Part shown: positions 211 through 64,000 of the stretch, piece after piece
Layout: each line of letters starts with the position of its first letter
Numbering within the stretch: the first letter of the stretch is position 1
Source: Paraspadella gotoi
Taxonomy: Eukaryota; Animalia; Chaetognatha
Direction of reading: 5' to 3'
NCBI GenBank assembly: GCA_051294375.1
Contig: CM119267.1
Coordinates: 25,245,783-25,309,782, forward strand
DNA length: 64,000 nucleotides
Made by a program: the position numbers and the translations under genes
The notes under the pieces: generated by a model
Seen by the model: only the letters and a program-made list of their open reading frames with translations
Told to the model about the DNA's origin: nothing
The model's database searches: none

Positions 211-969
211 ATGGTCGGAGAGGGAGATCGTCGAATCTTTGTCGGTCATCTTCCGCCCGACGTCCGCAACAAGGACCTCGAAAATCTTTTCCGCAAATTC
301 GGCCCAATCGTTTTCGTCGACGTGCAGAGAAATAAACGTGGGCCACCCTTCGCCTACGTAGAGTTCGAGCAGCCGGAGGACGCCGCCGACGCTGTCGCAG
401 AGCAAAACGGTCGACGCTTCGCCGGTGAACGATTACGAGTCGAGTTTCCTCGCGGATCCGGAGTTACCCGCTGCTCGGAACGTCAAGAAAGTCTTCCCCG
501 TCGTTCCGTCCACCGATGTCTAGTCTCTGGCCTTCCAGCTTCGGCCACTTTGAGAGAGCTTAAAGAACGCATGGGCGATGCGGGGAAAGTTTGTTTCGCC
601 GACGTGTTGGGCGAAGGGGTGGGCGTCGTCGAGTTCTCGAGCCGAGATGAAATGTTTATGGCCGAATCGAAGCTAAACGACACAGTTTTCCGGTGGCAAA
701 GTGGGGAAGATTCTCTTCTCAAAGTTTTTGTGGATCCGAAGCGTGACATCGGGAAAAAGAGGAGCCGATCTCCCCGCGACTCTGATCGTAGTCCGCTTCT
801 GTTTGCCCACCGACGTCCTCTTCTCAACTCTGATCGTCGTCCTCTTCTCAACGCCGACTTTCGTCCTTTTCTCAACGCTGTCCGTCGATCCATTCTTGAA
901 TCGGCTCGTTATCCTCTGCTCAATGCTCGTCGTAGGCACCTTCCAATCCCAATGATGCGCGATGATTAG
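211..969 (+). CDS. SRSF1/SRSF9-like two-RRM splicing factor, divergent and intronless
   Basis: RRM1 (RIFVGHLPPDVRNKDLENLFRKFG...PPFAYVEFE...DAADAV...LRVEFPRG) and pseudo-RRM2 (RRSVHRCLVSGLP...GKVCFADV...GVGVVEF) match SRSF1/9. The RS domain is reduced to RSRSP. Confidence 0.85.
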   Translation: MVGEGDRRIFVGHLPPDVRNKDLENLFRKFGPIVFVDVQRNKRGPPFAYVEFEQPEDAADAVAEQNGRRFAGERLRVEFPRGSGVTRCSERQESLPRRSVHRCLVSGLPASATLRELKERMGDAGKVCFADVLGEGVGVVEFSSRDEMFMAESKLNDTVFRWQSGEDSLLKVFVDPKRDIGKKRSRSPRDSDRSPLLFAHRRPLLNSDRRPLLNADFRPFLNAVRRSILESARYPLLNARRRHLPIPMMRDD

Positions 970-1565
970 TGTTTTTAATTAGTTTAGACCGAAAACTTGT
1001 CCGATTCTCTTTACAGTGAAATTTTTTTTTTATTTTTGCGAGGTCGTCGTTGATAGTTCTAGTTGTTTTTCAAGTATTTTTCAGGGCTAACCGAGTTCTA
1101 TTCGTCTTTACTGTCTTCTCATTCATTGGCCATCACGCAGTTCCTTTTCATTAATATCGACCAGTCTTCAGTGCTAATCTCTTCGGAATTCATTTACCGG
1201 AAACTACCTCTTGAAGTGGAGTCCACGAAGATTTCCATTTTCGGTCGATGATTATGATTGGTAAAATTCTAGATTCGCCGACTATGATTTTCGCTTCTTA
1301 TCCTTAGGAATATAAACAATTAAACATTTAAAAATTTTACGTATTCCTGAAGAAAAATAGTCAGCTGTTACCTAATTACCCTAACCCTAAACCCTCCTTC
1401 ACAGTAACCACAGTCGGTGAATGTAGAAATAAGCCAAGAGGGAGTTTGAAAACCAACTTTAATTCATCGCTTTATTTTTATGTTAGAATTAGACGACTTT
1501 ACTTTCCAGCCCAAGGACCTTCAACTATTACTAAACAATCTTAACCAAAAGCGCCGACGACGATC

Positions 1566-2478
1566 ATGGATTTTCTCTTTGGTAAAAAGAAGACTCCCGA
1601 CGAAATGCTGCGCCAGAACCAACGGGCGCTTAACAAAGCAATGAGAGAACTGGACAGAGAAAGAACCAAAATGGAACAACAGGAGAAAAAAATCATCGCC
1701 GACATTAAAAAAATGGCTAAACAAGGCCAAATGGACGCGGTTAAGATCATGGCCAAAGATCTGGTCAGGACCAGACGTTACGTCAAAAAGTTCATGTTAA
1801 TGAGAGCTAACATTCAGGTTCTGTATTAGTATTTTCACAACTTAATTCCCATCTCACGTTTTCAATTAAAGTAAAAGCTTATTTTAATCGATTTACAGGC
1901 CGTTTCTCTCAAGATTCAAACTTTAAAATCACAAAACACTATGGCGCAAGCGATGAAAGGCGTCACCCGTGCCATGCAAAAGATGAACAACCAACTTAAA
2001 CTTCCCCAAATCCAAGTTAGTCTTCTACTTTCTAGAAATTCGATTTAGACGTTTATTCTTTTGATTTCAAAGGATTCTCCCTTATTTTTCCAACAGAAAA
2101 TCATGATGGAGTTCGAAAAGCAATCGGAGATCATGGACATGAAAGAGGAGATGATGGAGGACGCCATCGACGACGCTTTGGGCGACGAAGAGGACGAAGA
2201 AGAGGGCGACAAAGTCGTGCAGCAAGTTCTCGACGAGCTCGGGCTCGATCTCGGAGATAAGTTGAACGGTGAGCTCATAATTCTTTCTTCTTTTTTATCC
2301 AACGATGATACTTATACTGGAGGGCGTTTTTCATACAGAATTACCGATGGCCAAAGACAGCATGGCCACTCCGGCGGCCGCCGCGGCAAAAACCCCCGTG
2401 GCGGAAGGCGGCGGCGGCGGCGTCGGAGACCTCGACGCCGACCTTCAATCCAGATTGGACAATCTGAGGCGTGAGTAG
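1566..2478 (+). CDS. CHMP2A: ESCRT-III subunit CHMP2A (Vps2), 4 exons: 1566-1817, 1899-2015, 2097-2268, 2339-2478
   Basis: MDFLFGKKKTPDEMLRQNQRALNKAMRELDRER...MAKQGQMDAVKIMAKDLVRTRRYVKKF; C-terminal MIM DADLQSRLDNLRRE*. GT-AG introns keep the frame. Confidence 0.97.
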
Positions 2479-3182
2479 TCTCGCGCTCTCTTTACACGCG
2501 TATTGTGATTTGTCAGTACAATGTAAATATTGTAGCCACTTAATTATTCTTTTGTATTTTCTTCATTTGTCTGCCTCCTCGGTGCGTTTTTTTTTTATTT
2601 TCGTGGGACGACACTGTCGACAGCTGTCACAACCCGGCTTTCGAGACGTTACATTGAATTCTCAACAAATATTTTTAAGACCACCTAGTTTTTTTCCGAG
2701 TTGAATTATAATGCAGCCGAGCCTAAATTAATCTCAGATGTACGATATGAGTGGACTACAACTCGAACGCTTTTGTTAACGGAGTTTACTAGTCATTTTG
2801 TTTCTTTTTTATAACCTACTGATGATGCCTCTGCCAGAAAGTAAACCCACCTACTACTATATACAGATTACATAAGTGTGACCTATTTTCAGTTCTATCA
2901 AAGTTAGTCAAACAGTTAACGTTTGCTATCGATTTTTTTTTTAAATTAAACATCCTTGACTCTTTTATTATTATTATTATTTTATTATTATTATTTTATT
3001 CGTCAGAATTGTTTAAAATTTAATCATTACGAATTACGTTCTCTTTTGCTGTTTTGATCCATACCTAGTTAATAATTTAGGTGGCATTCCTGAAATTTCT
3101 ATGTGTCAAATTATTTTTACTGATTTCCTAGATGTTGAGCAGAACAAAAGGATAAAAAAAACGAACTGGTTGAGTCGTCGCC

Positions 3183-6100
3183 ATGTCGAATCGTCAACGA
3201 CGAACTGGGACGAACGCGAAGAGCGCGTGGAGCGACGCCCTCGCCTCCACCTCCGCCGCCGAGGGCGATCCTTTCAAGATGTTGCAGAGCGACCTCAGCG
3301 GCGAGCAGTGGGAGTTGTTCCGCAAACTTCGCGAGTTCGACGGGGATTTGGTGGCGGGACTTTCTGACTCCGAGACGGAGATGGAACCCGGCGAGATACG
3401 CTTCGACGGACTTCCGTCATCCGCGGCCTCCGGAGACACGAACGCCACCGCCTCCACCGACACCTCCGTCACCGCCACCGAAACGACTCGTCCCAGCTTC
3501 GTCGAACCCGCACGAGTTTCTTCGATGGTCGCGCACACTTTGACTTTTTCGTCGGGTGGCGCTAGAACCGTCGGCACGGCCTCCCGGGCGGACATAGCCG
3601 CTGCTTATTTAAAGGGAGAGTTGACCTTTACCGGTTAGTAGTCTACAACGTTGCTGTATTTCTTTCTTTCTGATGTCTTCTCTTAATATGTTTTCGTATT
3701 TCAGAATTCAGCAACATGATGGACGACCAGCAGAACCAAGAGTTGGAGGCCGCCCTCCTTGACGGGGCGTTGGACTCGGCCGAGTCGGCATCGATGGTGA
3801 CGTCGAGCGAAGCTGGCCAGAGTCACCTGACGGACATGAGCGGATGCGAAACTGGGAACGAGGCCGAACCCTGGGATCCGCGGCTCGATTTCGACGGGAG
3901 AAAGAAGCGGTGAGCGTGTTACAGAATCCCGTTGTAAGAATTACAATACTGATTTAGTGATTTCTATTTATTTACAGAAAAGGTATACGAAAAGCTCACA
4001 ACAAACTTGACAAGGCTCTACAGGGACTTATGGGGGAAGCGAATATGAGTTTCGCTAAAGGACAGCACGACGAGGCGGTTAAAACCTGTATGGAAGTCAT
4101 TCGTTTAGCTCCAAATGCTCCAGAACCTTTTCGGTAGCTGCATAGTGAATACACAATTGTTTTTCTTTTATTTTATATCATATTTCTTTATCTTTATACT
4201 TTTCCTTTCCTTTTCCCTTTACTCAGGACGCTAGGGATGATCTACGAAGAACTGGGCGATTTGTCCAAATGCCTCCAGTTCTATCTCATCGCCGTCCACC
4301 TCAATCCGGGCGATCCTCAGGAGTGGGTCAAAGTCGCCGAAATGAGTCTGGAGCAGGACGACCCGAAGCAAGCGATCGCATGCTACGGAAAGGCCCTTCG
4401 TTGCGACGCTGAGAACATTCCACTCATGATGAAACGATGTCAACTCCTGGAGAAAGTCGGGGAGAAGAAGAAAGCGCTAGAGGCCTACCAGTCGGTGCTG
4501 CGGTTATTGCCTCCCGAAGAGGGTCCTCGTTATATGAGCCTGGCCCGCGACGTGGCCAAAGGCTACCGCGATATCGAAGCCCTGGATCGTGCCGAGTCGA
4601 CTCTGCGCTCCGCCTTTGCCGCGCATCCTTCACTCATTCTCTCTGAAGACATTAACACCCTGACAGATATCCAGATTCGCCTCAAGCAGCACGAGAAGGC
4701 GTTGAAGATTCTGGCGATCTACTGCGGCGTCGAGTTTTTGTCCGAGGGCGGCCATCGGGTCCCGATCAAGCCGGGCGACGAGGACCGCGTTGATCCCTTG
4801 TCCCTGGAGGTTTGTCTGGTGCCACAGGATTTGCCCGTCGATCTCCGCGTCAAACTCGCCATCTGTCTGGCCTTTCTCGAGTCGGCGGCGCCACCCTTCA
4901 CCGTCGTGGAAAAAGTCCTCGACGAAAGCGCCGAAAAGATCGGCGACCTTTTCCTAGACCTCGCCGACGCCTTTGCCGAAACTGGAAATTACCAGGTCGC
5001 CAATCGTTTCCTTTCTAAACTGGTCGTCTCGCAAAAGTACAACCTCGCTGCCGTCTGGTTGCGCTACGCCGAGTGTCTCAATGCTGTCGGAGATTTGCCC
5101 ACTTGCGTTGAAGCTTACAGGTTTCTGCCACGAAAAATGACTTAGTTTTTTTTTCCCCCCGTCTTATTAAAGGTTTCTAGATATTCGTTTCAGGTCGGTC
5201 ATTACTCTTGCGTCAGGTCACAGAGAAGCGAGGATGGCTATGTCGGCCGTCTTGCAGCAATTAGGCCGTTCCGACGAAGCATTGGATGTTCTTGGAATAG
5301 AGACGGTTTCCGCTTCCATGTAAGAGATTGCTTCTTTGATCCTCATTCTTTCTCGTTTTTTCCATTTTTTATCCTTTTGAATATCATTAGCACCTCTGAC
5401 TCGGAACCCAATCAATTAGGAGACATGCGTTTGCTCCTTCAACGTTGTCTCTTACTTTATTCTCAAAAGAAGTTTGACGAGTTTTTCTTCACTGCAAATC
5501 AAATGCTCTTTGCGCATTTCAAAGATGTCTTCAGCCCTTCTCACTTGGCGACGATTCTCAGCAACCGGTCTTTAAGGCACCGAACCGAGGCTCTTAGACA
5601 GGTAAGATGAAAAGTACTAATTCGGATTCAAAAAAGATTGGCTCTCATTTTAATTCTCATTACAAATTTCAGCTTCACGGGAATGAATTGGCTCAGCGAA
5701 TTTTTTCTGCCCCCAAAATTGTAGCCGCGGATTCCGGCGTGACGGTAAACGACATGTGGGACATTTACCTTAAGGTCTGCTTTGTTTACAATAAATTAAA
5801 TTAAATTTAATAAAAATTTGTTTTCTACGACTGAGACTGCTTATTTCTTTGGTGTCGTCCTTCTAAAAATAGTGTGCCATTGGCACTGTGCCATGCAAAG
5901 AGAACTTAATTTAAACTTATTTGACTAAAGAATGAATTTAAATACGTACATACATCTCAGGTCTGTTACACTCTAATGGAGCGAAAAGATTACAAACAAT
6001 TGGAAAGTTTCACCATCGCGGCGCTGATGACCCCTAACTTCATGAAGGATCCGGCCAAAGCCAAAGAGGCAGAGTTCATCTGTCTCCTCGCCTGCATCTT

Positions 6101-6902
6101 AAACAAAAACGGACACTTTGCCTACAATTTCATCAAAGAAATCTGCGTGAAAGACGTCAACAATTATCGTGCATGGAATCTCTTCTGTCAGATAATCACC
6201 ATTTCTCAGGATCTCCGCCACAATCGGTTCTGTTTGAGACTAATGTTCAAACGGCCCGACCACCTTCCGCTGGGAATTCTCAACGGACACAACTCCCTCG
6301 TCGCGGGCTCGTACAAACATTCCTTGGGAGAGTACGTCGCCGCCCTGAAGCAAACTCCCGAAGATCCACTGATCAATCTTTTGATCGGAGTCACTTTCGT
6401 CCACATGGCGTCGCAGAAATTCGCTACGAAAAGACATTCCCTCGTCGTTCAGGTTAAGTTTCATTTTGAAAAGAGTTACGGTAATAAGAGTTACGGTAAT
6501 AATGCTTTCGTTTAAACCGATCTTTCTTAGATGTACTCTTATTTACCTCTCATCATCATGGCTGCTGTTAAGATTCATTCGGCACGACCTCATCCTATTC
6601 GATAATTACTATCATTCCTGTGACTTTTACAGGCCTGTGCGTTTTTTCATCAATACGTTCAACTCCGTGGCAAAAGCCAAGAGACTTGTTACAATCTCGG
6701 ACGCGCCATGCAACAGTTGGGCCTTTATCACGCCGCGATTCATTATTACAAGGAAGCCCTCGAGTTGGAACCCTGTATAGTGGACGAGACTGAAACTTTT
6801 GATCTGAGACGGGAGGCGGCCTTCAATTTAGTTTTGATTTACAAACACAGCAATTCGCCTTTAATGGCTCAGTTGATAATCCAAAAGTATTTAACCATTT
6901 AA
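3183..6902 (+). CDS. GTF3C3: General transcription factor IIIC subunit 3 (TFIIIC102, TPR protein), multi-exon
   Basis: LQGLMGEANMSFAKG...CMEVIRLAPNAPEPF; LGMIYEELGD..CLQFYLIAVHLNP; RHNRFCLRLM; LNGHNSLVAGSYKHSLGEY; DLRREAAFNLVLIY C-terminus. Confidence 0.93.
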
Positions 6903-7095
6903 ACTTTTCCTTCGCCTGCCCCGGCCAGTATATGCCCCTCTCTCATTGTTTTCCCTTTGATATTTATTTTAAAAGAAATTCTTCCTGTTTTTTGCGAGCT
7001 TAACAAGCGGCTTTACGCTGTTTACGACTTTGATTCCCTCGCTGAGGGTTTTGGTGGCTAAAGCGCCGTTACGTTGCCGACTCTATTCGAGAATC

Positions 7096-8032
7096 ATGTC
7101 GGGAGACATTCCGTTCAACGTCGTCTTCGTTTTGGGCGGACCTGGAGCTGGAAAAGGTGCGGATGTTTTCTTCACATATGAAATATGCATTGTATAGCTT
7201 ATACAATATTTATTTTTTAAATAAAAGGTACGCAGTGCGCTCGCATCTCGGAAGAATTTAAATGGGCACATCTGTCCGCTGGAGATCTGCTGCGTGCCGA
7301 AAGAGCGAAAGGCACAGACGTGGGCAAAGACATTGAGCGCCACATTCGTGAAGGCACCATCGTTCCTGTCGAGGTTACATGTTCTCTGCTGGAGAAGGCC
7401 ATGATCGCAGCCCAGGGTATAAATTAAAATTCTTGCAATTTTTATTCTTACCTCGGACTTAATATTTTCATCCTTCTTTTCATTTTTCCAGCCGAAACCA
7501 ACAACTTTCTCATCGACGGTTTCCCTCGAAACAAAGACAATTTCGAGGGATGGCAACGACAGATGGCGTCCAAGGCCGACGTCAAATTCACTCTCTTCTT
7601 TGATTGCCCTTCGGAAGTTGGCACAGAGCGATGTCTTCAGCGGGGGATGGCGGGCAGCGGAAGGTTGGTGCCTAAGTTTATCACTCGAGAAAGTTTACCG
7701 CAGAGAGAGATTGAGACTTGGTGTAAAAGTGTAAAAGTGTGCGAGTGAAATGAGAGGGCGCATTGATTCTATTGATAGATTGAGACGAATTTACTTTTAA
7801 TTTTGGCTTTTTTAGATTTGAAATGTTTTTTGTTGTTTTGTCTATTTTTAGGGCTGACGACAACGTTGAAAGTTTGAAAAAGCGGTTCGTGACTTACATT
7901 GACTCTACGATGCCCATCATCAAACACTACGAGAGCGCGGGGCTGTTGAGGAAAGTGGACGCCGCTCGATCCCCGAATGAAGTTTACTGTGAAGTCTCTC
8001 AACTCTTTCGCGCCTTGCAGTCCACGAGTTGA
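7096..8032 (+). CDS. CMPK1: UMP-CMP kinase, 4 exons
   Basis: [17 protein letters not shown]-loop, [47 protein letters not shown]. Confidence 0.95.
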
Positions 8033-8361
8033 CTGGACGTTTTGGTCGACCAATGACATTCCCTTTTTATTATATATTACAAAAGATTTACAATACAGCT
8101 TAAAGTTTTAGCGAAATTGTAACAAATATTGTCTAGATAAAATATAATAATGTGTTCGATCTCGTCGGAAAGGGTTCAAGTATTTTTTTTATATCTTTTT
8201 TTCTATCGTGATACACTTGTCAGGTATCAACCAAGTCATTAGTTTTCTTCCCCTTGGTTTGCAATCCAAGTAGTTATCATGTCTCACAAGTATATACTAA
8301 TGTGTTTATTTGCTAGGTATCCCTTTTATTCGAGCTTGAAATCAGGAGTAGCTTCGTTTCC

Positions 8362-9210
8362 ATGTCAGCCTCGGGTGGCTCTTCGCTTTTGCTCAAAAAC
8401 CTGATCCTCTCTCGTCCGGAACATGAGCGAGCGATCAAAGCCTTCTGCGCCGTGCTTGACCGGGTGGAGTCGGCCCTGCAGCGCCGATCCGAAGACGCAG
8501 TGGCCAAGAGTCCTCCTCGGGTCGTCGCCCTCGTTCCTTCCTACTTCCCGCCCTCGATGATCGTCGACTGCTACAACGCGGGACTAAGACATTTCGGCGA
8601 GTCGCTTCACCACGAACTCATCAAGCGCGCCGAGAACGAGGACATCCTCAGACATTGCCCTGACATCAAGTGGCACTTCTACGGCCCCATCCAGCCATCG
8701 CTGGGCAACAGCCGCCTCGTCCGAACCGCAAATCTTTTCATCATTGAGACGGTGCAGAACGAGACGGTGGCCAACATTCTCGAACGCTGCGCCGCCCAGG
8801 AAAAGTTGCCCGGACTCAAGGTGATGGCGCAAGTGAGCTGCGGCGCTGCGGTGGAGAGGGAAGGAGACCGGGCCACGCCCTTGACGGCGCACGTGCTTTG
8901 CCGACACGTCGTCGAGGATTGCCCTCATTTGGAACTCTGCGGCCTGATGCTCGACGGGTCAGCCAATCGGTCAGCCAACCGGTCGAGCAACAACGAGGCC
9001 GACGACGACGACTTCCAAATGTTGACCAAGGCGAGGTTGGACGTCTGCCGTCGGCTCCAGATCGAAGTGGAGGATTTCGAGTTGAGCATGGGCATGAACC
9101 ACGACTTCGAACTCGCCGTCGAGATGGGCAGCTCTAACGTGCGGATTGGAGGGCCCCAACTTTTTGGAAGCCCCAGCGTTTTGTCAGGAACCAAAGATAG
9201 GTCGGATTGA
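8362..9210 (+). CDS. PLPBP: PLPBP/PROSC/YggS-family protein, divergent and intronless
   Basis: YNAGLRHFGE...ILRHCPDIKWHFYG, CPHLELCGLM, ELSMGMNHDFELAVEMGSSNVRIG. The VSKT lysine motif is absent. Confidence 0.88.
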   Translation: MSASGGSSLLLKNLILSRPEHERAIKAFCAVLDRVESALQRRSEDAVAKSPPRVVALVPSYFPPSMIVDCYNAGLRHFGESLHHELIKRAENEDILRHCPDIKWHFYGPIQPSLGNSRLVRTANLFIIETVQNETVANILERCAAQEKLPGLKVMAQVSCGAAVEREGDRATPLTAHVLCRHVVEDCPHLELCGLMLDGSANRSANRSSNNEADDDDFQMLTKARLDVCRRLQIEVEDFELSMGMNHDFELAVEMGSSNVRIGGPQLFGSPSVLSGTKDRSD

Positions 9211-9499
9211 ATTAGATTTTGGCAACTCGTGGACATTTTGCGACAAGATCGACTGGGTCTTCAGAGAACAGTTAAAATTATAAAACCAATCACGCTCAGT
9301 TTTGGCTTTTAACTGGTGCACGCACCTGAAAAATGTTGCTTTGTGATTACAATCTCTATTTTAATTAAAAGTAGTTGTAGAAAGAAAACTTGTTTTCACG
9401 CGTTATTTTAATCCGTTTTTATGAACAAAAATTATATACTTTTTAACCTTTCTTAAAGATTTTTGTAAATATTTATAATAAACCTTTAAATTAAAAACA

Positions 9500-10108
9500 A
9501 TGAAAATTTGGGAATCGCAGCACACTTTCGCCCACTCATGGGAGACTGTAACGTCTGCTTTGTGGCGCAAATACCCCAACCCCCACAACACTCACGTGGT
9601 CGGCGTCGACGTGATCGAGCGTCGGGTGACTCCCGAGGGGTTGCTCGTCTCCGAGCGACTCATGACCACCCAGTGGGGCCTCGCCCATTGGGTCAAAAAA
9701 CTTATCGGGTTCGAAGACGACGCCTACGCTCACGAGATCTCCACTGTGGACGCGGGACGAAAGCGGCTCGACCTCGTCTCACGAAACTTGACATTTTGCA
9801 GCAAAGTGAACGTGGAGGAACGAATCACTTACTCGCCTGATCCCGATGATCCCGAGAACAAGACTCTGATGAACCAGCAGGCCATCGTCACCGTGCAGGG
9901 CGTCCCTCTAACGTCCTACATGGAGCAATTGATGACGACGTCCATCGCGGGCAACGCGTCCAACGGGCGGCGGGCGCTCGAGTACGTCATCCAACGCCTG
10001 CAGTCAGACGCCAAGGAGATCAAGGAGACTCTGACCAAATTGGACTCGGATTTGAAGACCTCGTTGGACGACATCATCAAGGACGGGCCGAGACCGCGAA
10101 ACATGTGA
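9500..10108 (+). CDS. PRELID3: PRELI/SLMO-domain mitochondrial lipid transfer protein, intronless
   Basis: MKIWESQHTFAHSWETVTSALWRKYPNPHNTHVVGVDV; QAIVTVQGVPLTSYME; NASNGRRALEYVI. Confidence 0.93.
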   Translation: MKIWESQHTFAHSWETVTSALWRKYPNPHNTHVVGVDVIERRVTPEGLLVSERLMTTQWGLAHWVKKLIGFEDDAYAHEISTVDAGRKRLDLVSRNLTFCSKVNVEERITYSPDPDDPENKTLMNQQAIVTVQGVPLTSYMEQLMTTSIAGNASNGRRALEYVIQRLQSDAKEIKETLTKLDSDLKTSLDDIIKDGPRPRNM

Positions 10109-12405: not shown

Positions 12406-13074
12406 ATGCGACGGGATTCCGTGGTCTTCTTTTTTTGCCTCGTCGCCTCCGCGCTAGCGAAATGCAAACATTACGAGACGCTCGGCGTCGACCCCGACGC
12501 CACCGATCGCGATGTTAAAAAAGCCTTTAGAAAGTTGGCCGTCAAGTATCATCCGGATAAAAACAAGGATTCTGGGGCCGCGGAAAAGTTTCAACAGATC
12601 GCCGTCGCGTACGAAATTCTCTCCGACAAAGAGAAGCGTCGCCAGTGCGACCGATTCGGCGACGCCTCCTTTCAAGACGGCGGATTCGACGGCCATCGAT
12701 TTTCCTTCAACTTTGAGGACTTGTTCAAAGATTTCGACTTTGACGATGTCCCCTTCGAGGATCTTCATCATCACAGTCATTTCGAGACTGAGGATTTCCC
12801 GCATCGAGGATCTCGATTCGGCGCAGGTGATTCTTTCTTCTCCAACTTCTTCGGTCACCAACACGACGAAGACGACGACTACGGCGGAGGCTTCCCGTCC
12901 GTCTACGAACGCGATGACGACGACGACGACGACGACCACCACGGCTTCTTCGGTTTTGACGACGATGACGACGGCTTCAGTCCTTTTACTAGATCTTCCG
13001 GGAATTCTCAGAACTGCAAGACGACGACGAGACGCGTTGGAAATATGGTGACAACGCAAACCATCTGCAATTAA
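12406..13074 (+). CDS. DNAJB9: ER-lumenal DnaJ/Hsp40 (ERdj4-like), intronless
   Basis: Signal peptide, J-domain with HPD, G/F-rich region, C-terminal [19 protein letters not shown] resembling the DNAJB9 tail. Confidence 0.88.
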
Positions 13075-15291: not shown

Positions 15292-15343
15292 TTCCCACAG
15301 CCTCGGGTATCCTCTTTCCCTTCGGTTCTTTTTTTTCGACGGG

Positions 15344-36949: not shown

Positions 36950-36980
<31 letters not shown>

Positions 36981-52300: not shown

Positions 52301-52344
52301 AGGAGCAGGAGGATTTTCCCAACATGATCCAATTCAAAGCTTGA
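46392..52344 (+). CDS. SLC4 Na+-coupled bicarbonate transporter (SLC4A7/8/10-like), multi-exon
   Basis: [117 protein letters not shown]. Confidence 0.95.
50142..51055. mobile_element. TA-flanked MITE (Tc1/mariner/pogo-like) in an SLC4 intron
   Basis: TIR CCATGATGGAAAAAAAAAGTGTCGTGGTT ... AACCGCGACACTTTTTTTTCCATCATGG, with TA on both sides. Confidence 0.8.
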
Positions 52345-54080: not shown

Positions 54081-54671
54081 ATGCGTCTTCTCTCCATCCG
54101 CTGCATCGTAAATTCCCGGTCATCGTCCGTTTCCTTTTTTCAATTGACCCGCGGTTTTTGCTTGTCGACGCCGTCCTCCGGCCTTCCACGCGTCTTCTTC
54201 GATGTCCGCACGGATAAAGGACCTCTCGGCCGCATCCTCATCGAGCTCCGGTCCGACATGACGCCGAAAACTGCCGAGAATTTCCGGCAACTCTGCACCG
54301 GCGAGGCGGGGTTCAGCTATAAAAACTCGGCTTTCCATCGCGTCATCCCTGGCTTCATGTGTCAAGGAGGCGACGTGACACGAGGCGACGGTTCCGGCGG
54401 CCAGAGCATCTACGGCGCCAAGTTCGCCGACGAGAACTTCAAACTGAAGCACACGGGGGCCGGGGTGCTCTCCATGGCCAACTCTGGTCCCAACACCAAC
54501 TCTAGTCAGTTCTTTATCTGCACCGCCGCGACCAAGTTTCTCGACGGGAAGCACGTCGTCTTCGGCGCCGTCGTCGGCGGAATGGACGTCGTCAAAAAGG
54601 TCGAGGCTCTCGGAAGTAAAAGCGGAAAGACGAGTCGAAGGGTCTTCATCGCCGATTGTGGCGCGGCTTAG
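54081..54671 (+). CDS. PPIF: Cyclophilin-type PPIase with mitochondrial presequence (CypD-like), intronless
   Basis: Arg/Ser-rich N-terminus, [56 protein letters not shown]. Confidence 0.9.
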
Positions 54672-54998
54672 CCCGGTGGGTTAAAGTGGTCAACACCCCT
54701 GCTGGCAGTGACTTGGAAAGGAGATGTGGTGCCAGAACCATTAGTTTGTTCCATGTTGAATAACAAACTGATGAATGATGAATGCATAATGAACATCGAA
54801 CGGACAGCAAGCCAATTCGTAGCAATCCGGTGAACAGTGACCTGAGGTGATTGTCAGCGCGACTTAAACGTTTTTTTGACTGATTTTGTTAACTGATATT
54901 AAAAAAAAAAAATATTAAGTATTTTACATGTTTCATTTTTAAGGAAAGAAATGAATTGATTCGGGTCGACTGTTTTCGTTTACGCACCGACGAAAATC

Positions 54999-56840
54999 AT
55001 GACGTCCGCCATGTCGCCATCTTTGTTTCCCGACGGTGACGATGACCTCGCTGACTTGTCTTTGATGATGGAGGCGTTCGCCGAAGCCTGGGTCGTTTCT
55101 AACCCTTCCTCCACCTTCCTTTCTGACGTTGACGACGAGGGCGCTCATTTTTCTGAAAACCGAGAAGTCGGTAAAGATTCGCCCAGCGCTGAAATGGACG
55201 ACGTTATCAAAGATAAAGCGATTGTGGATGAAAATAATTGTTCGACAGAGGCAACATCAAATTCTCAGATCGAAAGCAATACCATAAACGAGGCCCAACT
55301 TCAAAATTCTGACCGGCCATTGGAGGCCAATGGAGAACTGTCATGTCCTTTAATCAACTCGCTCAATCCTTCGTCCATTTCTAAAGGGCAGGATACGGTC
55401 GACCTCATTGTGCCTCCATCATCTCCCGATCTCTCACAACCAAGAGACTTTTCCGTAGAGTGCGAGATCGAAGACGCGACTCGATCGCCGATCCCCTGGC
55501 GTCGCCGTCTAATCTTGGGAAGTTGGATCAAGGCTAAAGACTTGGCCCAATTTGTTCTTTTGAAGGCGGGACGAATCGGGTCTAAGGCCGACGTGCCGAG
55601 GACCCGAGTCTTTCTCTCCATTCCACCCTGGCAACCGTTGGATCTGAGAGCGCTCGTCAAGAATTTGCTCGTGAGCGTCGGCGAGTTTTTAAAGCCACTG
55701 AAGGACGCCGAGCAAGTGACGATTAAGGTTAATATGAGAGAAGGAGAGAGAGTTTGATCGCTTGTATATTGACGAATGATTTGGCTATTTATTTTTAGTC
55801 GGCTAGACGTAAATTAATATGACACTTTGCGCTATCTGTCTGTCTGTTCTTCCTGGTTTGTTTTAAACTGGATGTGCCTCACTGCCTATCTCTGAGCCTG
55901 CGAGTCCCTTTGCCTTGCATCAGGTCGTCGTGGACGAGTGGCGGCGCAAAGATCTCCTCTTCAAGTGGAACGACGAAGCTGTGCGCACGACTCTGACGGC
56001 CTTATTGAGGCACTACTCTCAAAAGCGGTTGGCCGCCCTTTGTCCTTTGTCGCAGTCTTATATCTCCACCATCGTCGCCAGTTCCGCCGCCGAATCTAAA
56101 TCTCGAATTCAAATTTCCGAATCCAAATGCGCCGAGTTTGGAATTTGGTTCGAACAATTCACGAAAAGAGTCATTTCCTCCGCCGCCGCTTCTGCAGCCG
56201 CCGCTGTCCCCGCGACCGCCTCAGCCGCTGCCGTCGCGAAGGGAGAGTGCGGACCTGATCAACGCCCCATTCAGGCAGGGCGAGGGAAATATTGGGTTTA
56301 ATTTGGGCTAATAGTAACTTTATCTTATGAAATAAATTGGTGGAAAAAGGATGATGATATTGTGGCGAATCCTAAATTAGCCTACCGTAGTTCACCAACC
56401 GTGAGTCCGGGTTCAATCCCCTCACGGTACCGCTGGTTAAGTGTGATGTGGTGTCGGCATAAACACGCCAGTGACATGGGGTGGTTACTGCAGGTCCAAA
56501 GCCCTGAGCGCCAGCTTTCGGGATACGCCTCACACCCCGGGAATCACACATTTCTCCCCGTTTGCTAGCTAATACTTATCATTGCCCCATTCATTGAACC
56601 CCGCGTCCTAGATCTCTTTCCACGCCGACCACGAACTCCCGCAGCTCAAGCGTTGGTTCGCCGATCACCCGGTGCCGACGGAGGCGGAGTTCGCTTCCTT
56701 CGCCTCCGCCCTCAACGGAGGCGCTTGGCGGCAGCGGAGCGATCGCGTCCGGGTGACCGAAGACAAGTTGAGGAACTGGTGGAAAAACGAGCGAGCGAGG
56801 ATGAGGAGGAGCGAGAGGAGGAAGAGGAAAGTGGATGAGT

Positions 56841-56842
<2 letters not shown>
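54999..56842 (+). CDS. SATB/Compass(dve)-like homeobox protein (ULD-CUTL-homeodomain); exons 54999-55727, 55924-56274 or 56295, 56612-56842
   Basis: CUTL WNDEAVRTTLTALL...CPLSQSYISTIV...KCAEFGIWF (cf. SATB1 CPLSQSMISSIV...KCQEFGRWY); ULD-like ...WQPLDL; dve-type homeodomain ISFHADHELPQLKRWFADHPVP...RNWWKNERAR, not captured by the ORF track. Confidence 0.85.
56432..56515 (+). ncRNA. Type-P5 twister ribozyme-like RNA, sense orientation, in SATB-like intron 2
   Basis: GCTGGT-taa-GTGT-GA-TGTG-gtgtcggca-T^AA-ACAC-GC-CAGTGAC..GTTACTG-CAGG-TCCA-AA-GC-CCTG-agc-GCCAGC; helices covary with the 35640-35720 copy. Confidence 0.7.
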
Positions 56843-57053: not shown

Positions 57054-59974
57054 ATGGCGAACTATACGCCTCACCTCTTCACTCACGCGATGCGACGCGT
57101 GCCTCGTCAAGTGGCTCAATTTCCTGAGAGACTCAAGTTTAAGAACCGAATGACGCGTCACAAAAAGGCCAATAACGCTTTCGTCCAGCCCAAGGCTGTC
57201 GTATACCCAATGGAGGAGGAGGTACTGTACAGTAAGGCGTAGTAATATTTCTAAATTTAACTTTAATTAAAATTCTAAAAGTGAGGAACGATCAACATTA
57301 TACTAATGAACATTTAAATATTAAAAAAATTTATAATAAATTTTATAATTTACGCAGTAGGCCATATACTAGTACTAATCCAATAAATGTTAAAATTTCA
57401 AAACAGTTTTTTCTAAATTTTTTTGCAGATTTGGATTCGTCATAAAAAGTTGATAAAAAGAAATATAATTCTTTTTGAAAAATTCCTTCATTAAGTGGGT
57501 CAAAATTTAGAAAAAGCTATATTTTAACCCACTTAATGAAAGAATTTTTAATAATGATTTGTTTTTTTTTTATCAACTTTTGACGAGGAATTCAAATCTG
57601 CAATCAAAATTAAGAAAAGCCTATTTTGAATTTTTTCGATTTTATTCTACTATAAATAAATATAGCCTACTTCGAAAATTAAAAAACATAAAATTATGTT
57701 TTTTTACAAATTAATGTTCACTGATGGTATGTTGTTCATAATTGACTTTTAGAATTTCCGTACGTAACTTTCACTACGCTTTACTGTACAGTGTACATTA
57801 GGGTCAAGTGAAAGTTAGGAATTGAAATTTAGCAATTATATTTTGAAAATTATCATATTAGTGAATACTAATCTGTAGTTATTTTTCTTTTTTTTATAAA
57901 TATAGTAGCCCAGTCAGCTTATTTTGTATATAGTATTACCCTTATATAATGTCAAAATTTTAAAATGTTTTTTTTTTTATTCTGAGAATAGATTAAGATT
58001 CCTTGTTAAAAGTTGATAAAAGAAAATATAAATTTTTATCAAAAATTATGTTATTAAGTAGGTTAAAATTATAAAAAAACTATATTTTTAAATTGGAAAT
58101 TGAAAATCGGTGTCTTAATTATAGTTTTTAACATTTTTGACTAACTTAATAAAATATTTTTTAAAAAGAATTATACTTTCTTTTATCCACTTTTTGTAAG
58201 GAATCCAAATCCGATCTTAAAATTAGAAAATTAGCCTATTATATACTTATTACTATGTATAAATATAGCTCACTGGTGCCCACTAATGTATAAAATTAAA
58301 AAATAAATTTACCAAAGTATTTTTAATGGTTTTTATGTTCATGTTTTATATGCTAAATTTTAATTTTCTAAAATTTTATAATTTTCACATCACTCTAGTG
58401 TACATGTGCTTAATAAGGATCACTATAACGAATAATATCTGCTTACCTAGATCATAAGCTACTTAGTAAATAATTATATAACAAAATAAATAAATAAGAA
58501 AAATACCTCTTAAGATTATTATTAGTACTAATCGTATTATTATTTTTAGTTTTAGTATTATTATTATTATTATTATATCAAAACGCGTCGATGATCAAGT
58601 CGAACGCAATTTCAAAGTTTTAAACCATTCGATTTTTCCTTTACCCCTAAGCTGGCAGCGTGGCGCGGTGGACGCCCTTACACTCAGGAGGAACTGTGGA
58701 ACGTCTCGTTGATGTTTCCAATGCAACGTCTGGATCGGATCGCGGACTCTGTCACCCAACTCGTCCGTCAGGAGAGGATCGAAGGGAGGAAGGTCGACTT
58801 GGAGGTAAGGAGGATCGTTTCAATCATCAATAGTTCCTCACTTATCTCATTCTCATTCTCTCTCTCTCTCTCTGTCAACCCGCGCAGGATGTCCGTCCCT
58901 ACGCTGAACTCTTGATCCAACTTGCGGCGCGGAACGGAGATCGGCATCGACCCACGATGGAGATGGTCGACTTTTACCTCAAGGAGAAAGACCTCGTTCC
59001 CAAACTCTTCGACGTTCTCGTTCCCAGATTCGCCTCTTTTCGGTGCTAATTTTTTTCGCTTTCGTTGATGTTAATCCATTAATTAATCCTTTCTCATAAT
59101 ATTTTTTTTTCAGGTCGTGTTTCACCAGCCTCTACACGCTCCCTCCCGAAGATCTTCGAGTGGCTCGTCAACGGAATAAGTTGCAGCTACAGATGCGCGG
59201 AATTCTCGAGCTCAAGGTTTTTTTGCGGAAGTGGGGAAATGGGGACGGAGAGTTGGAGGGTTTGGGAAAATTTTTGCTGACAGGAGAGAGACAGGGTTGT
59301 AGTGAACGATCGAGTAAGGAGGAAAATGGATGAGTTGTTCTTGGGCGGAAAAAAGAGATATATGTATATTGTTGCAAATTCGATGGTTTATGTGGAGACG
59401 AGGAGACGAACTCATTAGTGGAATTTTTTGTAGAGAACTTACCTCGTTTCGGCATTGTTTGGCTCGGCGAAAATCAGTTGATTTTGAATATACTCAATCT
59501 CGATTTTAGAATCGAAATTTTGATCAAAGCAACAAAACGAGATTACAATAAAAATCATAATTAAATTTAAACTTTAAATAAACACGAACCTTTTCCTTTC
59601 ACCCCAAGGGAAATCCTTGGCCGGCTGTGATTCCCAATCGCCGCGACCACTCTGGCCTCCTCACTAACGTCCTTCTTCGCGCTGCCCGCTCCGCCCGCGA
59701 AGAGGAGCTCGACCGTCGGGCGCGACGGAGCGTCGCCGAAAAAGTTGACGCTGTCGGCGAGAGCTTGGAGGCGCCATCGATCGAGGCCGTCGCATCCATG
59801 ACGTCGGCGACAGATTCTTACTTGAACTTAGTCGACGAAGACGTCGAAAGACTCGAACTACGAGTCGAGGACGATCGAGCTGACGACGGCGTAGACGATG
59901 TTGACGATGATGACGACGACGATGTCAATATTCAAATAAAAAATTTGGATCTAAATCTTTCGACGAGAAGTTAA
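57054..59974 (+). CDS. MRPL17: Mitochondrial ribosomal protein L17 (bL17m); exons 57054-57221, 58652-58804, 58888-59042, 59114-59216, 59609-59974
   Basis: Spliced product VTQLVRQERIE...VRPYAELLI...MEMVDFYLKEKDLVPKLFDVLVPRF...ILELKGNPWPAVIPNRRDHSGLLTNVLL matches MRPL17 motifs. Confidence 0.88.
57230..57786. mobile_element. Foldback MITE with Tc1/mariner-like ends in MRPL17 intron 1
   Basis: TA|CAGTAAGGCGTAGT ... ACTACGCTTTACTG|TA, with long internal inverted symmetry. Confidence 0.8.
57796..58400. mobile_element. Second foldback MITE, adjacent, with related internal sequence
   Basis: TA|CATTAGGGTCAAGTGAAAGTTA ... ATAATTTTCACATCACTCTAGTG|TA imperfect TIR; internal AAAAGTTGATAAAAGAAA and ATTAAGT(A/G)GGT(T/C)AAAATT shared with its neighbour. 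Confidence 0.7.
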
Positions 59975-60199: not shown

Positions 60200-63100
60200 A
60201 TGTTCAAAAAACCCAAACGGAACTTTCGAAAACGACAGGACAGCGACGTCGAAGACGAAGACGATGCTGCCGCTTCCGGCTTTTCCGGCCCCTTCGTCTC
60301 TCATTCCTCCGGTTCCGTTACCGACGCAGTGCGCGGTCCCGTAGTCATTCGAACCCAAATCGGCGGTGGCGGCGGCGGGACAGTCCCGCTCATGGATCAA
60401 AAGCCCTTCGTTCCAGGGTTTCACCGCGAGGTAAGTTCAGCGCTAAATGCTATTTTACTGTTAGTAAAATTGCTGTGACACTGTGAAGTCCATTAGCAAT
60501 TCGTTAACGGAATCAATGAATTCTAATAAATCAATCAATCCATTTGACAGGCTGCGACGGAAGACCTTGACGGATTGAGTGAGTTTGAGTTGGCGCAGAA
60601 ACTCAAATCTCAATCGCGGGAAAAGAAGAAAAAGAAAAAGGAGATGATGAAAGAGACGCCGCCCTCGTCTCTTCTTAGCTTCGACGCTTTGGAAGACGCC
60701 GATGTCGAACAGCCTTTCAAGATCAAAAAATCGAAGGTATGAAATTGGAATAACCAATATAAAAATTGTCAAGTTTTAATAAATTTCTTACTGTTATTAT
60801 TCTTTTTATCGTCGCAATCGCTTTGCGGTTGCAACGATCTCGTAAGTCGTAACGCTTTTGGGCATAAGTGGCGTAGGCGTCGTCGTCGTCGTCGTCTTCG
60901 TCGTCGGTGTTCCAAATTATAGATCGCCTTTTTGATGATTAAATTGACAATCGCAAAATATATATATTTTTTTCTGTTTATAAATTAATTTTATTTTCTC
61001 AAATTTTATTTTTTTTAGTATCAAAATTTGTCGTCAATCCAGATTTTTCTTATGCGATTGCGACGATCCTTGTGCTTTTAAGATTTTTAATATCCTTTTC
61101 TCCGTATTTCAGGAGAGCAGAAGATTGGAGCGAGAAATGAAGAAGGAGAAACGTTTGGAGAAAGCGAGGAGGAAGATGGAGGAGGAAGGAAGAGAAGGCG
61201 TGAAGACGGAACGAGACGACGACGACGACGACGGCGACGAGGGTCACACCTTCATCGACGCCGATGGAATTCACATCCGCGTCAAGAATTTCAACGTCCC
61301 GACCTCCGTGGCGACGCCTTCGTCTACGCTCTCTGGACGAGACGTCAAGCCGTCGGCGTTGTTGGGAGGCGGAAGAGAACCGAAGCGGGAGGATGATGAT
61401 GAGGAAGATCATAGACGTAGCGCGGAAGATGACGATGATGACGACGAAGACATCGATGACTATGGCTCCTCTTCCCCGCGCGAAGACCGATTCGGCGTCT
61501 CACGTCGACGCGCCGAGGGACCCCGTCTTCAACGAATGCTGGAAGAGGGAAAAATCCCCGATGCGGCGCTCATCCATGCCGTTCGCAAGCGGCGCCAACA
61601 GTTGGCCCAAGGCAGCGGCGTCGAGGGCGGCGCTGATTTTGTGCCATTGAAAAATAAAGCGTCTGGATCTTCGAGCCGAGGAGGCGGTGCTGGAGGATCG
61701 AGGCTTGTCAGCGAGGATCAAGAGTACGACGAAGACATGACTCAACCGCTCAAGTTTTCCGTAGATCAGTACGCGGCGCAGCGACAGGTTAGTTGGGTGA
61801 AGCTGTTGGACATAAACTCTCGTCATGATCCGTCGATTATTAAACTTTAGTAGATGTTAATTAGACCTTTATTAGACTTTAATCGGTGATTAATGTTCCC
61901 AATTTGTATTAGAAGTTGTACAATTATGTTTTGTCTTTCTCTCCTAGGAAATTCGCGACAACTTTTTGGCCGCCGAGCACGGCAGCGACGACGCCGACAG
62001 CGACGATCCTGAGAACGACGAAGCTCTCCGGCGATGGGAACGCGATCAAATCAAGAAAGGATTCACCGGCGCCGGCGGAAGTGGCGCTGCTTCCGTAACC
62101 GGCGCCAACGGTGCCAGTGGCGCTGCTTCTCCGACTCCAATGGAGTCGTTGGTCGGCACTTATTACGGATGTACGTCGGACGCGGTCAACTCGGCCGTCG
62201 CCGCCGCCGCCGCCGCCTCCCTAGTCTCTGGTTCCGCCTCTTCCTCTTCAAACGGCCCCTCCGGCGCGGCGGGCAATCGTTACGCCGCCGCTGCGATGGC
62301 CGCCGCCGCCGCCTCGGCCGCCATGCCAGACTCGATATTAGATATTAAAAAGCGACTTCGATCCCGACTGGACGGGTTCGAATCCGTTGCCCGCGGTCAC
62401 CGTCAAGAACTCGATTCTCTTGAAGACTCGCTCGCTCTCACCGAGCATTCTATCCGCACTCACGACTCAGACGTGAGGCGTCTCGAAAAAAAGTATACCT
62501 TCTTCCAGGAGACTCGTTGCTACGCGACGGATCTCGTCGATTGCCTCGACGACAAGTTGCCGAAGATCGAGGCGTTGGAGGCGTCTGCCCACGCGCTCTG
62601 GCGAAAAAGGGCGGAAAGATTACAGAATCGATATCAGGTGGATTTTTGTTTTTCAGAAATTATTCGCTAAGAATTTAAAAGCTGATAACAAATATAACTT
62701 AACTAATATTACGATTTTGTTATTTCGAGGCGGACGTGCGAGACGCGGCCGCCAGATTCGCAACCTCCAATCCATCGAAGACTCTCGACGCCGAGACGAA
62801 GAGACGGCTCGTGGATCGGGAGTGTCGACGCGCGCGACGGCGCCAGGCACGGGCGGCTACGTCGGCTTCTCGCCATGAGGAGGGCCTCTCCACCGACGAC
62901 GAGGAGGCCCCTTCGGACATCCAGACATTCAGGGACGAACGCCTTCGTCTACATCAGTCGGCCGCCGAAATTTGGGACGACGTCGTCGACGATTTCCATC
63001 GATTCGATCTCGTCCTCAAGCGCTTCGAAGAATGGAAGCGGCTGCACGGCGATTCTTATCAGAACGCTTTCGTTGCCTTTTGTCTTCCGGGACTTCTAGC

Positions 63101-64000
63101 GCCTTTTGTGCGGATGGCCTTGATCGGCTGGTCCCCCTTTCCCGTCTCCTTAGACGACGGGGGCGGTTTCGAAGACTCCGAGTGGTTCCAAAAGGTGTTA
63201 ATGTACAACGCTGCCGGCGCCCGCCTTGCCGACTCCCTCTCTAACGGTCGCGCCTTCTCACCGCACCTCAATGGCGAAGCCAGCGACGACGACATCGACG
63301 ATGACGGAGGCGTCAACGTCGACAAAGACGTCGACGGAGATGAAGACTTTAAAATTATTCCTCGTCTGGTGGAGAAAGTGATCGTCCCGAAGTTGGCGTT
63401 TTTCGTTGAGGACGTCTGGAATCCCTTGTCCTCGGTGCAGACTAGAAGACTCTCCAAGCTCTTGCAACGGCTCGTCGATGAATATCCTTCCGTCCACATG
63501 GATTCTAAGAACGTTCAGGTAATGGTGGTGACTATTCTAATTAGCGAGTGCGTATTTAGTGTCAAAATTAATGTTTAAGTATTAATCATGTTGAGCGAAA
63601 TGGCCTCGAGACGATTCTCAGTTATTCTGTTTTAACTCAGGCGATGGTAAAGGCGGTTGTGGCGCGGCTTAAGCGGTGTCTTAACGAAGACGTCTACGTG
63701 CCTCTCTACTCAAAAGAGCTTTTGACCGACAAAACCTCAGAGGCTGCTGCCTTTTTTGACCGACAGCTCTGGACCTGCATCAAACTCTTTGGCCATATCT
63801 TCCAGTTTTCACAGTTTTTGGGTTTGGCTCAGTTGCAGGTTCGTACGACAAAAGATTTAATACTAAACCAGTGGCTCCGCCAATACATGTAAATCGTTTT
63901 CAAGGGCTTAAACTGAACTGTTACTGCGCTATTAATAACATTTTGGTACTTAAAATATATTTTGTAAATCAAGATTTTTTTTTTTTTTGCTTACGTCATT
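60200..64000 (+). CDS. PAXBP1: PAX3/7-binding protein 1 / GCFC family (Ntr2-like), 3'-truncated by the window end
   Basis: MFKKPKRNFRKR, LLSFD, GKIPDAALIHAVRKRRQ, RRWERDQIKKG, KYTFFQETRCYATDLVDCLDDK, HEEGLSTDDE, SYQNAFVAFCLP, WNPLSSVQT. Confidence 0.92.
60803..61088 (+). mobile_element. Helentron-like element, copy 4 (internally deleted), in a PAXBP1 intron
   Basis: Both subTIRs, (GTC)n and the 3' stem-loop are retained; most of the core is deleted. Confidence 0.8.

What the first reader, a model, noticed from the sequence alone, without database searches (positions are those of the whole stretch)
211..64000. 22 functionally unrelated genes all on one strand and tightly packed: candidate metazoan operons / polycistronic transcription
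Seen: every recognisable gene is on +; with independent orientation the chance is 2^-21 (~5e-7). Stop-to-ATG gaps include 52 (PSMG4-POMK), 131 (INTS4-SH3BP5), 193 (GTF3C3-CMPK1), 211 (SATB-like-MRPL17), 225 (MRPL17-PAXBP1), 236 (ATE1-INTS4), 289, 327 and 329 bp. These leave little room for a 3'UTR plus promoter plus 5'UTR, and many contain U-rich tracts. Known: operons resolved by spliced-leader trans-splicing occur in nematodes, tunicates, flatworms and chaetognaths. Inference: one or several long polycistronic units, possibly broken at the larger gaps (~20.7-22.8, ~44.8-46.4, ~52.3-54.1 kb). An unbroken 64-kb unidirectional run would be unusually long.
Basis: partly seen in the sequence, partly recalled or inferred. 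Interest (0 to 1): 0.85.

Follow-up and report, generated by a model that had tools for sequence, protein, structure and literature searches.

The report
Long gene operons in arrow worm
In what is likely an arrow worm, 22 unrelated genes lie head to tail on one DNA strand and assembled RNA runs unbroken across four of them, likely because they are copied as long shared transcripts that leader splicing cuts into single messages, a mechanism already described in these animals although this run may be longer than the published ones.

Summary
Observation confirmed: 22 named genes, plus one unnamed coding unit, all lie on +, and the nine quoted gaps are exact. One contig of a same-species RNA run covers 1369-9415 with all 14 introns removed and all three internal gene gaps kept. 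That run holds 0.89 of the 31-mers of 7000-16600. Intron-free words make up 0.89-0.90 of that stretch and coding words only 0.58, so RNA cover probably runs from SRSF1 to POMK (11 genes). The closest eIF2-alpha relative found (87% identical; the next best 71%) starts with 25 of 25 letters of the published chaetognath leader SL2.0. The animal is therefore likely a chaetognath, a phylum where leader-resolved operons are published (about half of genes trans-spliced, 18% in operons, longest nine genes). No leader was seen on this species' own contigs, and no start site was mapped. Verdict: a new member of a known kind. What remains of interest is length. An 11-gene unit would exceed the published nine, and a 22-gene one-strand run is expected only 0.03-0.07 times per genome under published operon fractions. 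Side finding: a likely stop-codon readthrough extension of MPP5.

The parts
211..969 (+). SRSF1-like, single exon
   Evidence: RRM_1; covered by X1 record 1, 29-1396
1566..2478 (+). CHMP2A, 4 exons; candidate unpaired acceptor ending at 1515
   Evidence: model; three joints in X1; acceptor 6.6 bits; name recalled
3183..6902 (+). GTF3C3, 9 exons; candidate acceptor ending at 3131
   Evidence: model; 7 of 8 joints listed, the eighth implied by record length; name recalled
7096..8032 (+). CMPK1, 4 exons; candidate acceptor ending at 7046
   Evidence: model; three joints in X1, one in X2; name recalled
8362..9210 (+). PLPBP/YggS-like, single exon; candidate acceptor ending at 8345
   Evidence: PDB hits E 2e-17; no Pfam hit; inside X1 record 2
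9500..10108 (+). PRELID3-like, single exon
   Evidence: PRELI; X2 piece 9676-10134
10523..11996 (+). EIF2S1 (eIF2-alpha), 2 exons; candidate acceptor ending at 10449
   Evidence: relative L001 carries the chaetognath leader
12406..13074 (+). DNAJB9-like, single exon
   Evidence: DnaJ
13616..14281 (+). BCL2-family gene, single exon
   Evidence: Bcl-2
14908..15291 (+). PSMG4; possible 5'UTR intron 14768-14887
   Evidence: PAC4; intron inferred from sequence, acceptor 9.8 bits
15344..16477 (+). POMK, single exon; candidate acceptor ending at 15300, 9 nt behind the PSMG4 stop
   Evidence: homologues; acceptor 5.5 bits
18031..20677 (+). CSNK1D/E, 4 exons
   Evidence: model; name recalled
22824..25046 (+). 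SH3BP1/ARHGAP17-like BAR-RhoGAP, single exon; follows a 2146-nt gap (possible unit boundary)
   Evidence: BAR, RhoGAP
25948..27579 (+). ATE1, 2 exons
   Evidence: ATE_N
27816..30797 (+). INTS4, single exon of 993 codons
30929..32770 (+). SH3BP5, 3 exons, with a frame break in the last exon
   Evidence: SH3BP5; frames
33302..37071 (+). MPP5/PALS1-like MAGUK, 12 exons
   Evidence: open 611-aa model; name recalled
37072..44755 (+). Unnamed coding unit in frame behind the MPP5 stop: exons 37072-37311, 37387-37432, 37512-37981, further blocks at 43859-43989, 44098-44450 and about 44611-44755
   Evidence: codon scores; 252 open codons without Met over the first three exons; later blocks not joined in frame
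46392..52344 (+). SLC4 bicarbonate transporter, 9 exons; follows about 1.6 kb without coding signal (possible boundary)
   Evidence: HCO3_cotransp; open 1291-aa model
54081..54671 (+). Cyclophilin (PPIF-like), single exon; follows a 1736-nt gap (possible boundary)
   Evidence: Pro_isomerase
54999..56842 (+). SATB/Compass-like CUTL-homeodomain gene, 3 exons (splice sites tentative)
   Evidence: CUTL, Homeodomain; model
57054..59974 (+). MRPL17, 5 exons
   Evidence: Ribosomal_L17; model
60200..64000 (+). PAXBP1/GCFC, at least 6 exons, runs off the window
   Evidence: GCFC; model
1369..9415 (+). Span of one RNA contig (6668 nt) with 14 introns removed and three gene gaps kept
   Evidence: table 8; length equals span minus introns exactly

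Best explanation
The 22 same-strand genes are likely several long operons of a likely chaetognath (arrow worm), in which RNA runs across the gene gaps and each downstream mRNA is likely released by splicing a 36-nt leader onto an acceptor just ahead of its start codon. Shown: the genes and their strand; spliced RNA contigs of this species that keep the gaps; the chaetognath leader on a relative's eIF2-alpha transcript. Inferred: the phylum; leader addition at these genes in this species; that a stop-to-ATG gap is mostly the 3'UTR of one gene abutting the 5'UTR of the next, with almost no spacer (as in the Spadella RPS14-PCNA operon and in Ciona); that the first unit spans SRSF1 or CHMP2A to POMK (10-11 genes); and that new promoters lie in the 1.5-2.1 kb gaps.
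For:: X1 record 2 runs 1369-9415 through CHMP2A, GTF3C3, CMPK1 and PLPBP; 13 GT-AG joints are listed, and its 6668 nt equal the span minus 14 introns. Bin depths match zero intron cover. X2, another study, adds low-depth pieces in two further gaps (9221-9389, 10147-10315). X1 holds 0.89 of 993 sampled words of 7000-16600; intron-free words are 0.888-0.904 and words wholly in coding sequence 0.58. L001 is 87% identical over 300 aa (the other 79 loci 71% or less), 285 of 334 residues in full; its first 25 nt equal the last 25 of SL2.0 in Table 3 of PMC2481426. Those 25 nt have no match in the window (best: 5 mismatches), and their last 20 match in 1 of 80 loci; an acceptor of 4 bits or more lies within 80 nt of the ATG in 13 of 22 genes, against 46 of 118 other + gap windows (p 0.012) and 36 of 141 minus windows (p 0.0005); four such sites are read through unspliced in record 2; 8 of 21 gaps hold neither AATAAA nor ATTAAA. 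Literature: PMC12460157 sections 10 and 19; PMC2481426 sections 12 and 13.
Against: No leader-like loose end was seen on X1: 24 of 162 loose-end rows were shown, 6 of them X1, none at a gene start. Contigs are not transcripts, and the tool says a contig across two genes shows no single transcript. Records 1 and 2 overlap by only 28 letters, so the SRSF1-CHMP2A link is not bridged. X1 is only guessed to be RNA, and no silent stretch could be laid as a DNA control. X1 contigs for most of 9416-13100 are missing from the lay, so cover there rests on the word share alone; beyond 16600 there is no RNA evidence. Pre-ATG acceptors are weaker than true ones (median 4.9 against 7.4 bits), and 9 of 22 fall under 4 bits. 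The INTS4 tree puts the window beside Priapulus (SH-aLRT 88, quick tree, stem 1.08, no named chaetognath or gnathiferan row). The phylum call rests on one leader-bearing contig.
Confidence: 0.75

Rival explanations
1. Each gene, or most, has its own promoter hidden in the upstream gene's 3'UTR or gap. Genes may still receive a leader, but they are monocistronic; overlapping UTRs and read-through make the RNA cover look continuous.
For: In P. gotoi 10,197 genes are trans-spliced but only 3,565 are in validated operons. Contigs cannot show starts. Short-read continuity needs only about 30 bridging words per junction (inference).
Against: It does not explain 22 genes on one strand (0.005 expected per genome). 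It leaves no untranscribed room in 7000-16600. The PSMG4-POMK gap is 52 nt and INTS4-SH3BP5 is 131 nt.
Confidence: 0.12
2. The whole 64 kb or more is one directional transcription unit, as in trypanosomes, with no promoter in the larger gaps either.
For: No strand switch in 22-23 units. Under published operon fractions such a run is expected 0.03-0.07 times per genome. T exceeds A on + in the 1553, 2146 and 1736-nt gaps too.
Against: No RNA was laid beyond 13100. P. gotoi has ordinary open chromatin near start sites. The run includes a transporter and a homeodomain gene, of kinds the paper finds depleted in operons (development, signalling). The expected-count model ignores clustering of housekeeping genes.
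Confidence: 0.09
3. The spliced multi-gene RNAs are mature, unresolved polycistronic mRNAs translated by scanning or re-initiation, as described in green algae.
For: Record 2 is fully spliced and spans four genes; no leader was seen in X1.
Against: The eIF2-alpha transcript of a relative begins with a leader 56 nt ahead of its ATG. Partial leaders shorter than the word length are likely clipped as tips in assembly (inference). Acceptors are enriched ahead of ATGs.
Confidence: 0.04

Closest known systems
Chaetognath operons: Paraspadella gotoi (PMC12460157; sections 10 and 19 read, further passages, three supplementary PDFs searched) and the Spadella cephaloptera RPS14-PCNA operon (PMC2481426; sections 12 and 13 read)
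   Same: Same-strand housekeeping genes (translation, proteasome, protein turnover); leader SL2.0 on a relative's eIF2-alpha transcript; closely packed co-oriented genes were already noted in a 158-kb Spadella BAC.
   Different: The published longest operon has nine genes under a 250-bp rule; here RNA cover suggests 10-11 genes and the one-strand run has 22-23. The main text of PMC12460157 has no occurrence of 'strand' or 'orientation'. Its operon table (xlsx) could not be read, so this block may be listed there.
Ciona intestinalis operons (PMC2760879, passages; PMC7986045, passages)
   Same: Abutting genes with no intergenic DNA, single-exon genes frequent (10 of 22 coding sequences here), resolution by a leader.
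   Different: Largest six or seven genes; different leader; exact abutment was not mapped here.
Oikopleura dioica operons (PMC11067885, passages)
   Same: Head-to-tail, functionally loose housekeeping genes; a nine-gene operon is reported.
   Different: Median intercistronic distances of about 30-60 bp (PMC7986045, passages); a tunicate with its own leader.
Trypanosome polycistronic units (PMC7986045, one passage; the name 'directional gene clusters' is recalled)
   Same: Long one-strand runs of unrelated genes, resolved by a leader.
   Different: There all protein-coding genes are polycistronic; here genes are intron-rich and a single long unit is not shown.

Membership tests
SL-resolved metazoan operon (chaetognath type) | Adjacent genes on one strand | tested here: met
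   22 of 22 named genes on +
SL-resolved metazoan operon (chaetognath type) | Short distance between genes (under 250 bp in PMC12460157) | tested here: inconclusive
   6 of 21 stop-to-ATG gaps are under 250 nt; UTR ends are not mapped, and RNA cover suggests that longer gaps are UTR
SL-resolved metazoan operon (chaetognath type) | RNA across the junctions between genes | tested here: met
   three gaps bridged by one contig; contig level only, not single molecules; five more gaps by word share
SL-resolved metazoan operon (chaetognath type) | Spliced leader on downstream mRNAs of this species | tested here: inconclusive
   not seen in X1 contigs (24 of 162 loose-end rows shown); seen on a relative's eIF2-alpha contig, 25 of 25 letters
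SL-resolved metazoan operon (chaetognath type) | Unpaired splice acceptor ahead of the start codon | tested here: inconclusive
   13 of 22 at 4 bits or more; enriched (p 0.012) but weaker than cis acceptors
SL-resolved metazoan operon (chaetognath type) | One promoter per unit, none inside | not testable with these tools
   needs CAGE, ATAC or nascent RNA
SL-resolved metazoan operon (chaetognath type) | Organism is a chaetognath | tested here: inconclusive
   for: L001 leader and 87% identity; against: INTS4 tree beside Priapulus at weak support, no named chaetognath row
Nematode SL2 operon | A leader reserved for downstream genes | not testable with these tools
   chaetognaths are reported to lack operon-specific leaders
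Trypanosome-type directional cluster | Tens of genes in one unit with no internal promoter | not testable with these tools
   strand pattern fits; no RNA laid beyond 13100 and no genome held for strand-run statistics

The most novel reading that the evidence does not exclude
Chaetognaths transcribe housekeeping genes in units far longer than the published nine-gene maximum: here at least 11 genes over 16 kb and possibly all 22-23 over more than 64 kb, an animal counterpart of trypanosome directional clusters that a fixed 250-bp distance rule cuts into pieces.
Probability: 0.3. Interest if true: 0.65.

Novelty: new member of a known kind. Interest (0 to 1): 0.38.

Why it matters
The mechanism is published for this phylum, so the locus alone is a further example. 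If the unit is 11 genes or more, it would exceed the longest animal operons I found in print (nine in Paraspadella and Oikopleura, six or seven in Ciona). It would also mean that distance-based operon calls undercount polycistronic transcription in animals. That is directly testable with the full-length cDNA, leader-read and ATAC data that PMC12460157 describes.

Tried and rejected
No whole genome is held, so strand-run statistics could not be computed. The run search listed no holder on record as RNA; X1 to X4 are guesses. X3 and X4 gave only short pieces at about 85-90% likeness and say nothing on operons. The POMK alignment found no locus among metagenome contigs. The PSMG4 search, meant to show PSMG4 and POMK on equal-length contigs in relatives, returned 2 distant proteins and no close relative. 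No window neighbour lies in the 80 eIF2-alpha loci; the one hit is a 27% kinase match in L052, so conservation of gene order is untested. Rfam gave 4 matches, all under their gathering scores, and no SL RNA. TAACCCTAA as a promoter mark: 11 matches at one mismatch against 11.2 by chance; rejected. TTTTTGT lies upstream of 12 of 22 genes against 3.4 expected, but it was picked after the fact from all 7-mers, and related T-rich words have no fixed position. CpG ratios did not mark promoters. I considered Xenoturbella, kinorhynchs and homoscleromorph sponges and dropped them once the leader was found; searches for operons or leaders in the first two found nothing relevant. The Atlas and the representatives search gave no answer, so the unnamed unit has no homologue test beyond Pfam. 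Earlier scan notes held nothing on this genome or look-alike stretches; the word searches listed other genomes only.
Full report
What is in the window. Reading all 64 kb and building models by hand gave 22 named genes, all on the + strand. In order: SRSF1-like, CHMP2A, GTF3C3, CMPK1, PLPBP, PRELID3, EIF2S1, DNAJB9, a BCL2-family gene, PSMG4, POMK, CSNK1D, a BAR-RhoGAP, ATE1, INTS4, SH3BP5, MPP5, SLC4, a cyclophilin, a SATB-like gene, MRPL17 and PAXBP1. The 51 introns have a median of 95 nt. Ten coding sequences have no intron. Pfam named 14 of 27 pieces sent; PLPBP came from PDB; INTS4, POMK and PSMG4 from homologue searches; five names are my recall from the translations. A 23rd coding unit lies behind MPP5, also on +. 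Of 96 ORFs outside the models, 71 were scanned and none hit Pfam. The median gap is 414 nt, and 6 of 21 are under 250.

Is it more than chance? 2^-21 is 4.8e-7, or 0.005 runs in a genome of 21,072 genes. If neighbours are linked at the operon fractions published for Paraspadella gotoi, the expectation rises only to 0.033-0.066. This model ignores clustering of housekeeping genes, and the window was picked from many, so it shows that the run is unusual, not that it is one unit.

RNA evidence. The run search returned four runs, none on record as RNA. X1 behaves as RNA of this species: 13 listed joints fall on predicted GT-AG introns, the long pieces differ by 0-1 letters, and bin depths match zero intron cover. 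Its record 2 is 6668 nt long and spans 1369-9415. That is exactly the span minus 14 introns, so it keeps the 704, 193 and 329-nt gaps between CHMP2A, GTF3C3, CMPK1 and PLPBP. Record 1 covers SRSF1 and most of the next gap and overlaps record 2 by 28 letters, too few to count as a bridge. X2, from another study, adds low-depth pieces in the PLPBP-PRELID3 and PRELID3-EIF2S1 gaps. For 7000-16600, X1 holds 0.89 of 993 sampled words. Words free of introns are 0.904 of the stretch, or 0.888 with a likely 5'UTR intron in PSMG4, and words wholly in coding sequence are 0.58. Nearly all gap sequence from CMPK1 to POMK is therefore in the run's contigs. Limits: contigs are not molecules; no silent stretch was laid as a DNA control; X1 contigs for most of 9416-13100 are missing from the lay; nothing beyond 13100 was laid. 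No leader-like loose end appeared among the 24 of 162 rows shown. I infer that partial leaders shorter than the word length are clipped in assembly where a genomic path continues, but this was not tested.

Which animal, and is there a leader? Named INTS4 homologues reach only 42% (Priapulus), while two unnamed metagenome proteins reach 70-71%. POMK shows the same pattern, with unnamed proteins up to 77%. A quick INTS4 tree of 38 rows (37 of the 120 hits plus the window) set this clade beside Priapulus at SH-aLRT 88 on a long stem; it held no named chaetognath. A scan with eIF2-alpha returned 80 loci. L001 is 87% identical over 300 residues, the other 79 at most 71%. It is spliced, has 285 of 334 residues identical in full, and begins with 25 letters found nowhere in the window. 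These equal the last 25 letters of SL2.0, the main leader of Spadella cephaloptera, also listed for Flaccisagitta enflata (PMC2481426, Table 3). The window is thus likely from a chaetognath, and a gene in the middle of the block is trans-spliced in a relative. The species was not determined.

Signals in the DNA. A matrix from 49 intron acceptors finds a site of 4 bits or more within 80 nt of the ATG in 13 of 22 genes. Controls give 46 of 118 other + gap windows (p 0.012) and 36 of 141 minus windows (p 0.0005). The sites are weaker than true acceptors, median 4.9 against 7.4 bits. The sites ahead of CHMP2A, GTF3C3, CMPK1 and PLPBP are read through unspliced in record 2, so that path does not use them as ends of cis introns. 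The POMK site lies 9 nt behind the PSMG4 stop. Eight of 21 gaps have neither AATAAA nor ATTAAA, which fits 3' ends made close to or together with trans-splicing; this is inference.

How it likely works. RNA polymerase likely starts at the head of a block and runs through many genes. Introns are removed in cis. A 36-nt leader is likely spliced onto the acceptor ahead of each downstream gene, and the upstream mRNA likely ends a few bases before it. In the Spadella RPS14-PCNA operon three bases separate the two sites, and Ciona operon genes abut directly (PMC2760879, passages). On this layout a stop-to-ATG gap is 3'UTR plus 5'UTR, which explains why a 704-nt gap is fully covered. New promoters most likely lie in the 1.5-2.1 kb gaps, but I have no evidence on them.

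Comparison with what is known. PMC12460157 (sections 10 and 19, passages) reports 10,197 of 21,072 genes trans-spliced, 18% of genes in operons, no operon-specific leader, and a longest operon of nine genes under a 250-bp rule. Its main text does not contain 'strand' or 'orientation'. Three supplementary PDFs held one passage on operons. The spreadsheet with the operon list could not be read and may already list this block. PMC2481426 noted closely clustered co-oriented genes in a 158-kb BAC. Ciona operons reach six or seven genes, and a nine-gene operon is reported in Oikopleura (PMC11067885, passages). The Flaccisagitta genome preprint (10.1101/2025.03.14.643333, passages) does not mention operons. 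I saw no longer animal operon in the listings of searches, which cover open-access text only.

Verdict. The feature is real and works like a known system in the phylum where that system is published: a new member of a known kind, interest 0.38. The open point is size. RNA cover suggests 10-11 genes in the first unit, and the one-strand run has 22-23. I give 0.3 to the reading that chaetognath units are much longer than published.

Noticed in passing
window 37069-37981 (+), further blocks to about 44755: MPP5 ends in its usual C-terminal motif (recalled) and UGA-C, but the same frame stays open for 252 codons over three GT-AG-joined exons with no Met; GC at third positions is 0.74 in the first exon against 0.66 in MPP5. 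Likely stop-codon readthrough giving a Ser/Pro-rich tail; alternative splicing around the stop exon is the rival. No RNA or homologue test was obtained.
   Followed up: partly
window about 32030-32075: The last SH3BP5 exon changes frame near a short A run; the downstream frame stays coding-like to the stop at 32770. Possibly an assembly error.
   Followed up: partly
window 40360-40634 (-): A GC-rich block with an acceptor-like start and a donor-like end on the minus strand, inside a long intron of the unnamed unit; one frame is open, no Pfam hit. The only candidate for an antisense exon in the window.
   Followed up: partly
window about 16500-17000, 19100-19600, 39460-39950, 60800-61100: A dispersed repeat of several hundred bases in four copies, all in the same orientation, in one gap and three introns.
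   Followed up: no
window 17040-17560: A pyrimidine-rich tandem array with a 9-nt period between POMK and CSNK1D.
   Followed up: no
window 35580-35860, 54675-54860, 56380-56560: Three GC-richer non-coding blocks of 180-280 nt in two introns and one gap; the third holds a B-box-like word (recalled motif). Possibly SINEs or small RNAs; Rfam gave no match there.
   Followed up: no
window 57392-57634 and 57944-58088: An AT-rich palindromic element with a second partial copy in MRPL17 intron 1, MITE-like; it explains the weak Rfam microRNA match.
   Followed up: no
window 22824-25046 and 27816-30797: INTS4 (993 codons) and the BAR-RhoGAP (740 codons) have no intron, while MPP5, GTF3C3 and SLC4 keep 8-11; their orthologues are multi-exon in other animals (recalled). 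Ciona operons are also rich in single-exon genes.
   Followed up: no
window 8362-9210 and 211-969: The PLPBP-like protein is divergent (no Pfam hit; PDB E 2e-17), and the SRSF1-like protein has almost no RS tail; both may be divergent paralogues.
   Followed up: no
window 1331-1352: Run X1 lacks 22 nt here, an allelic difference in the SRSF1-CHMP2A gap next to the point where its two contigs break.
   Followed up: no
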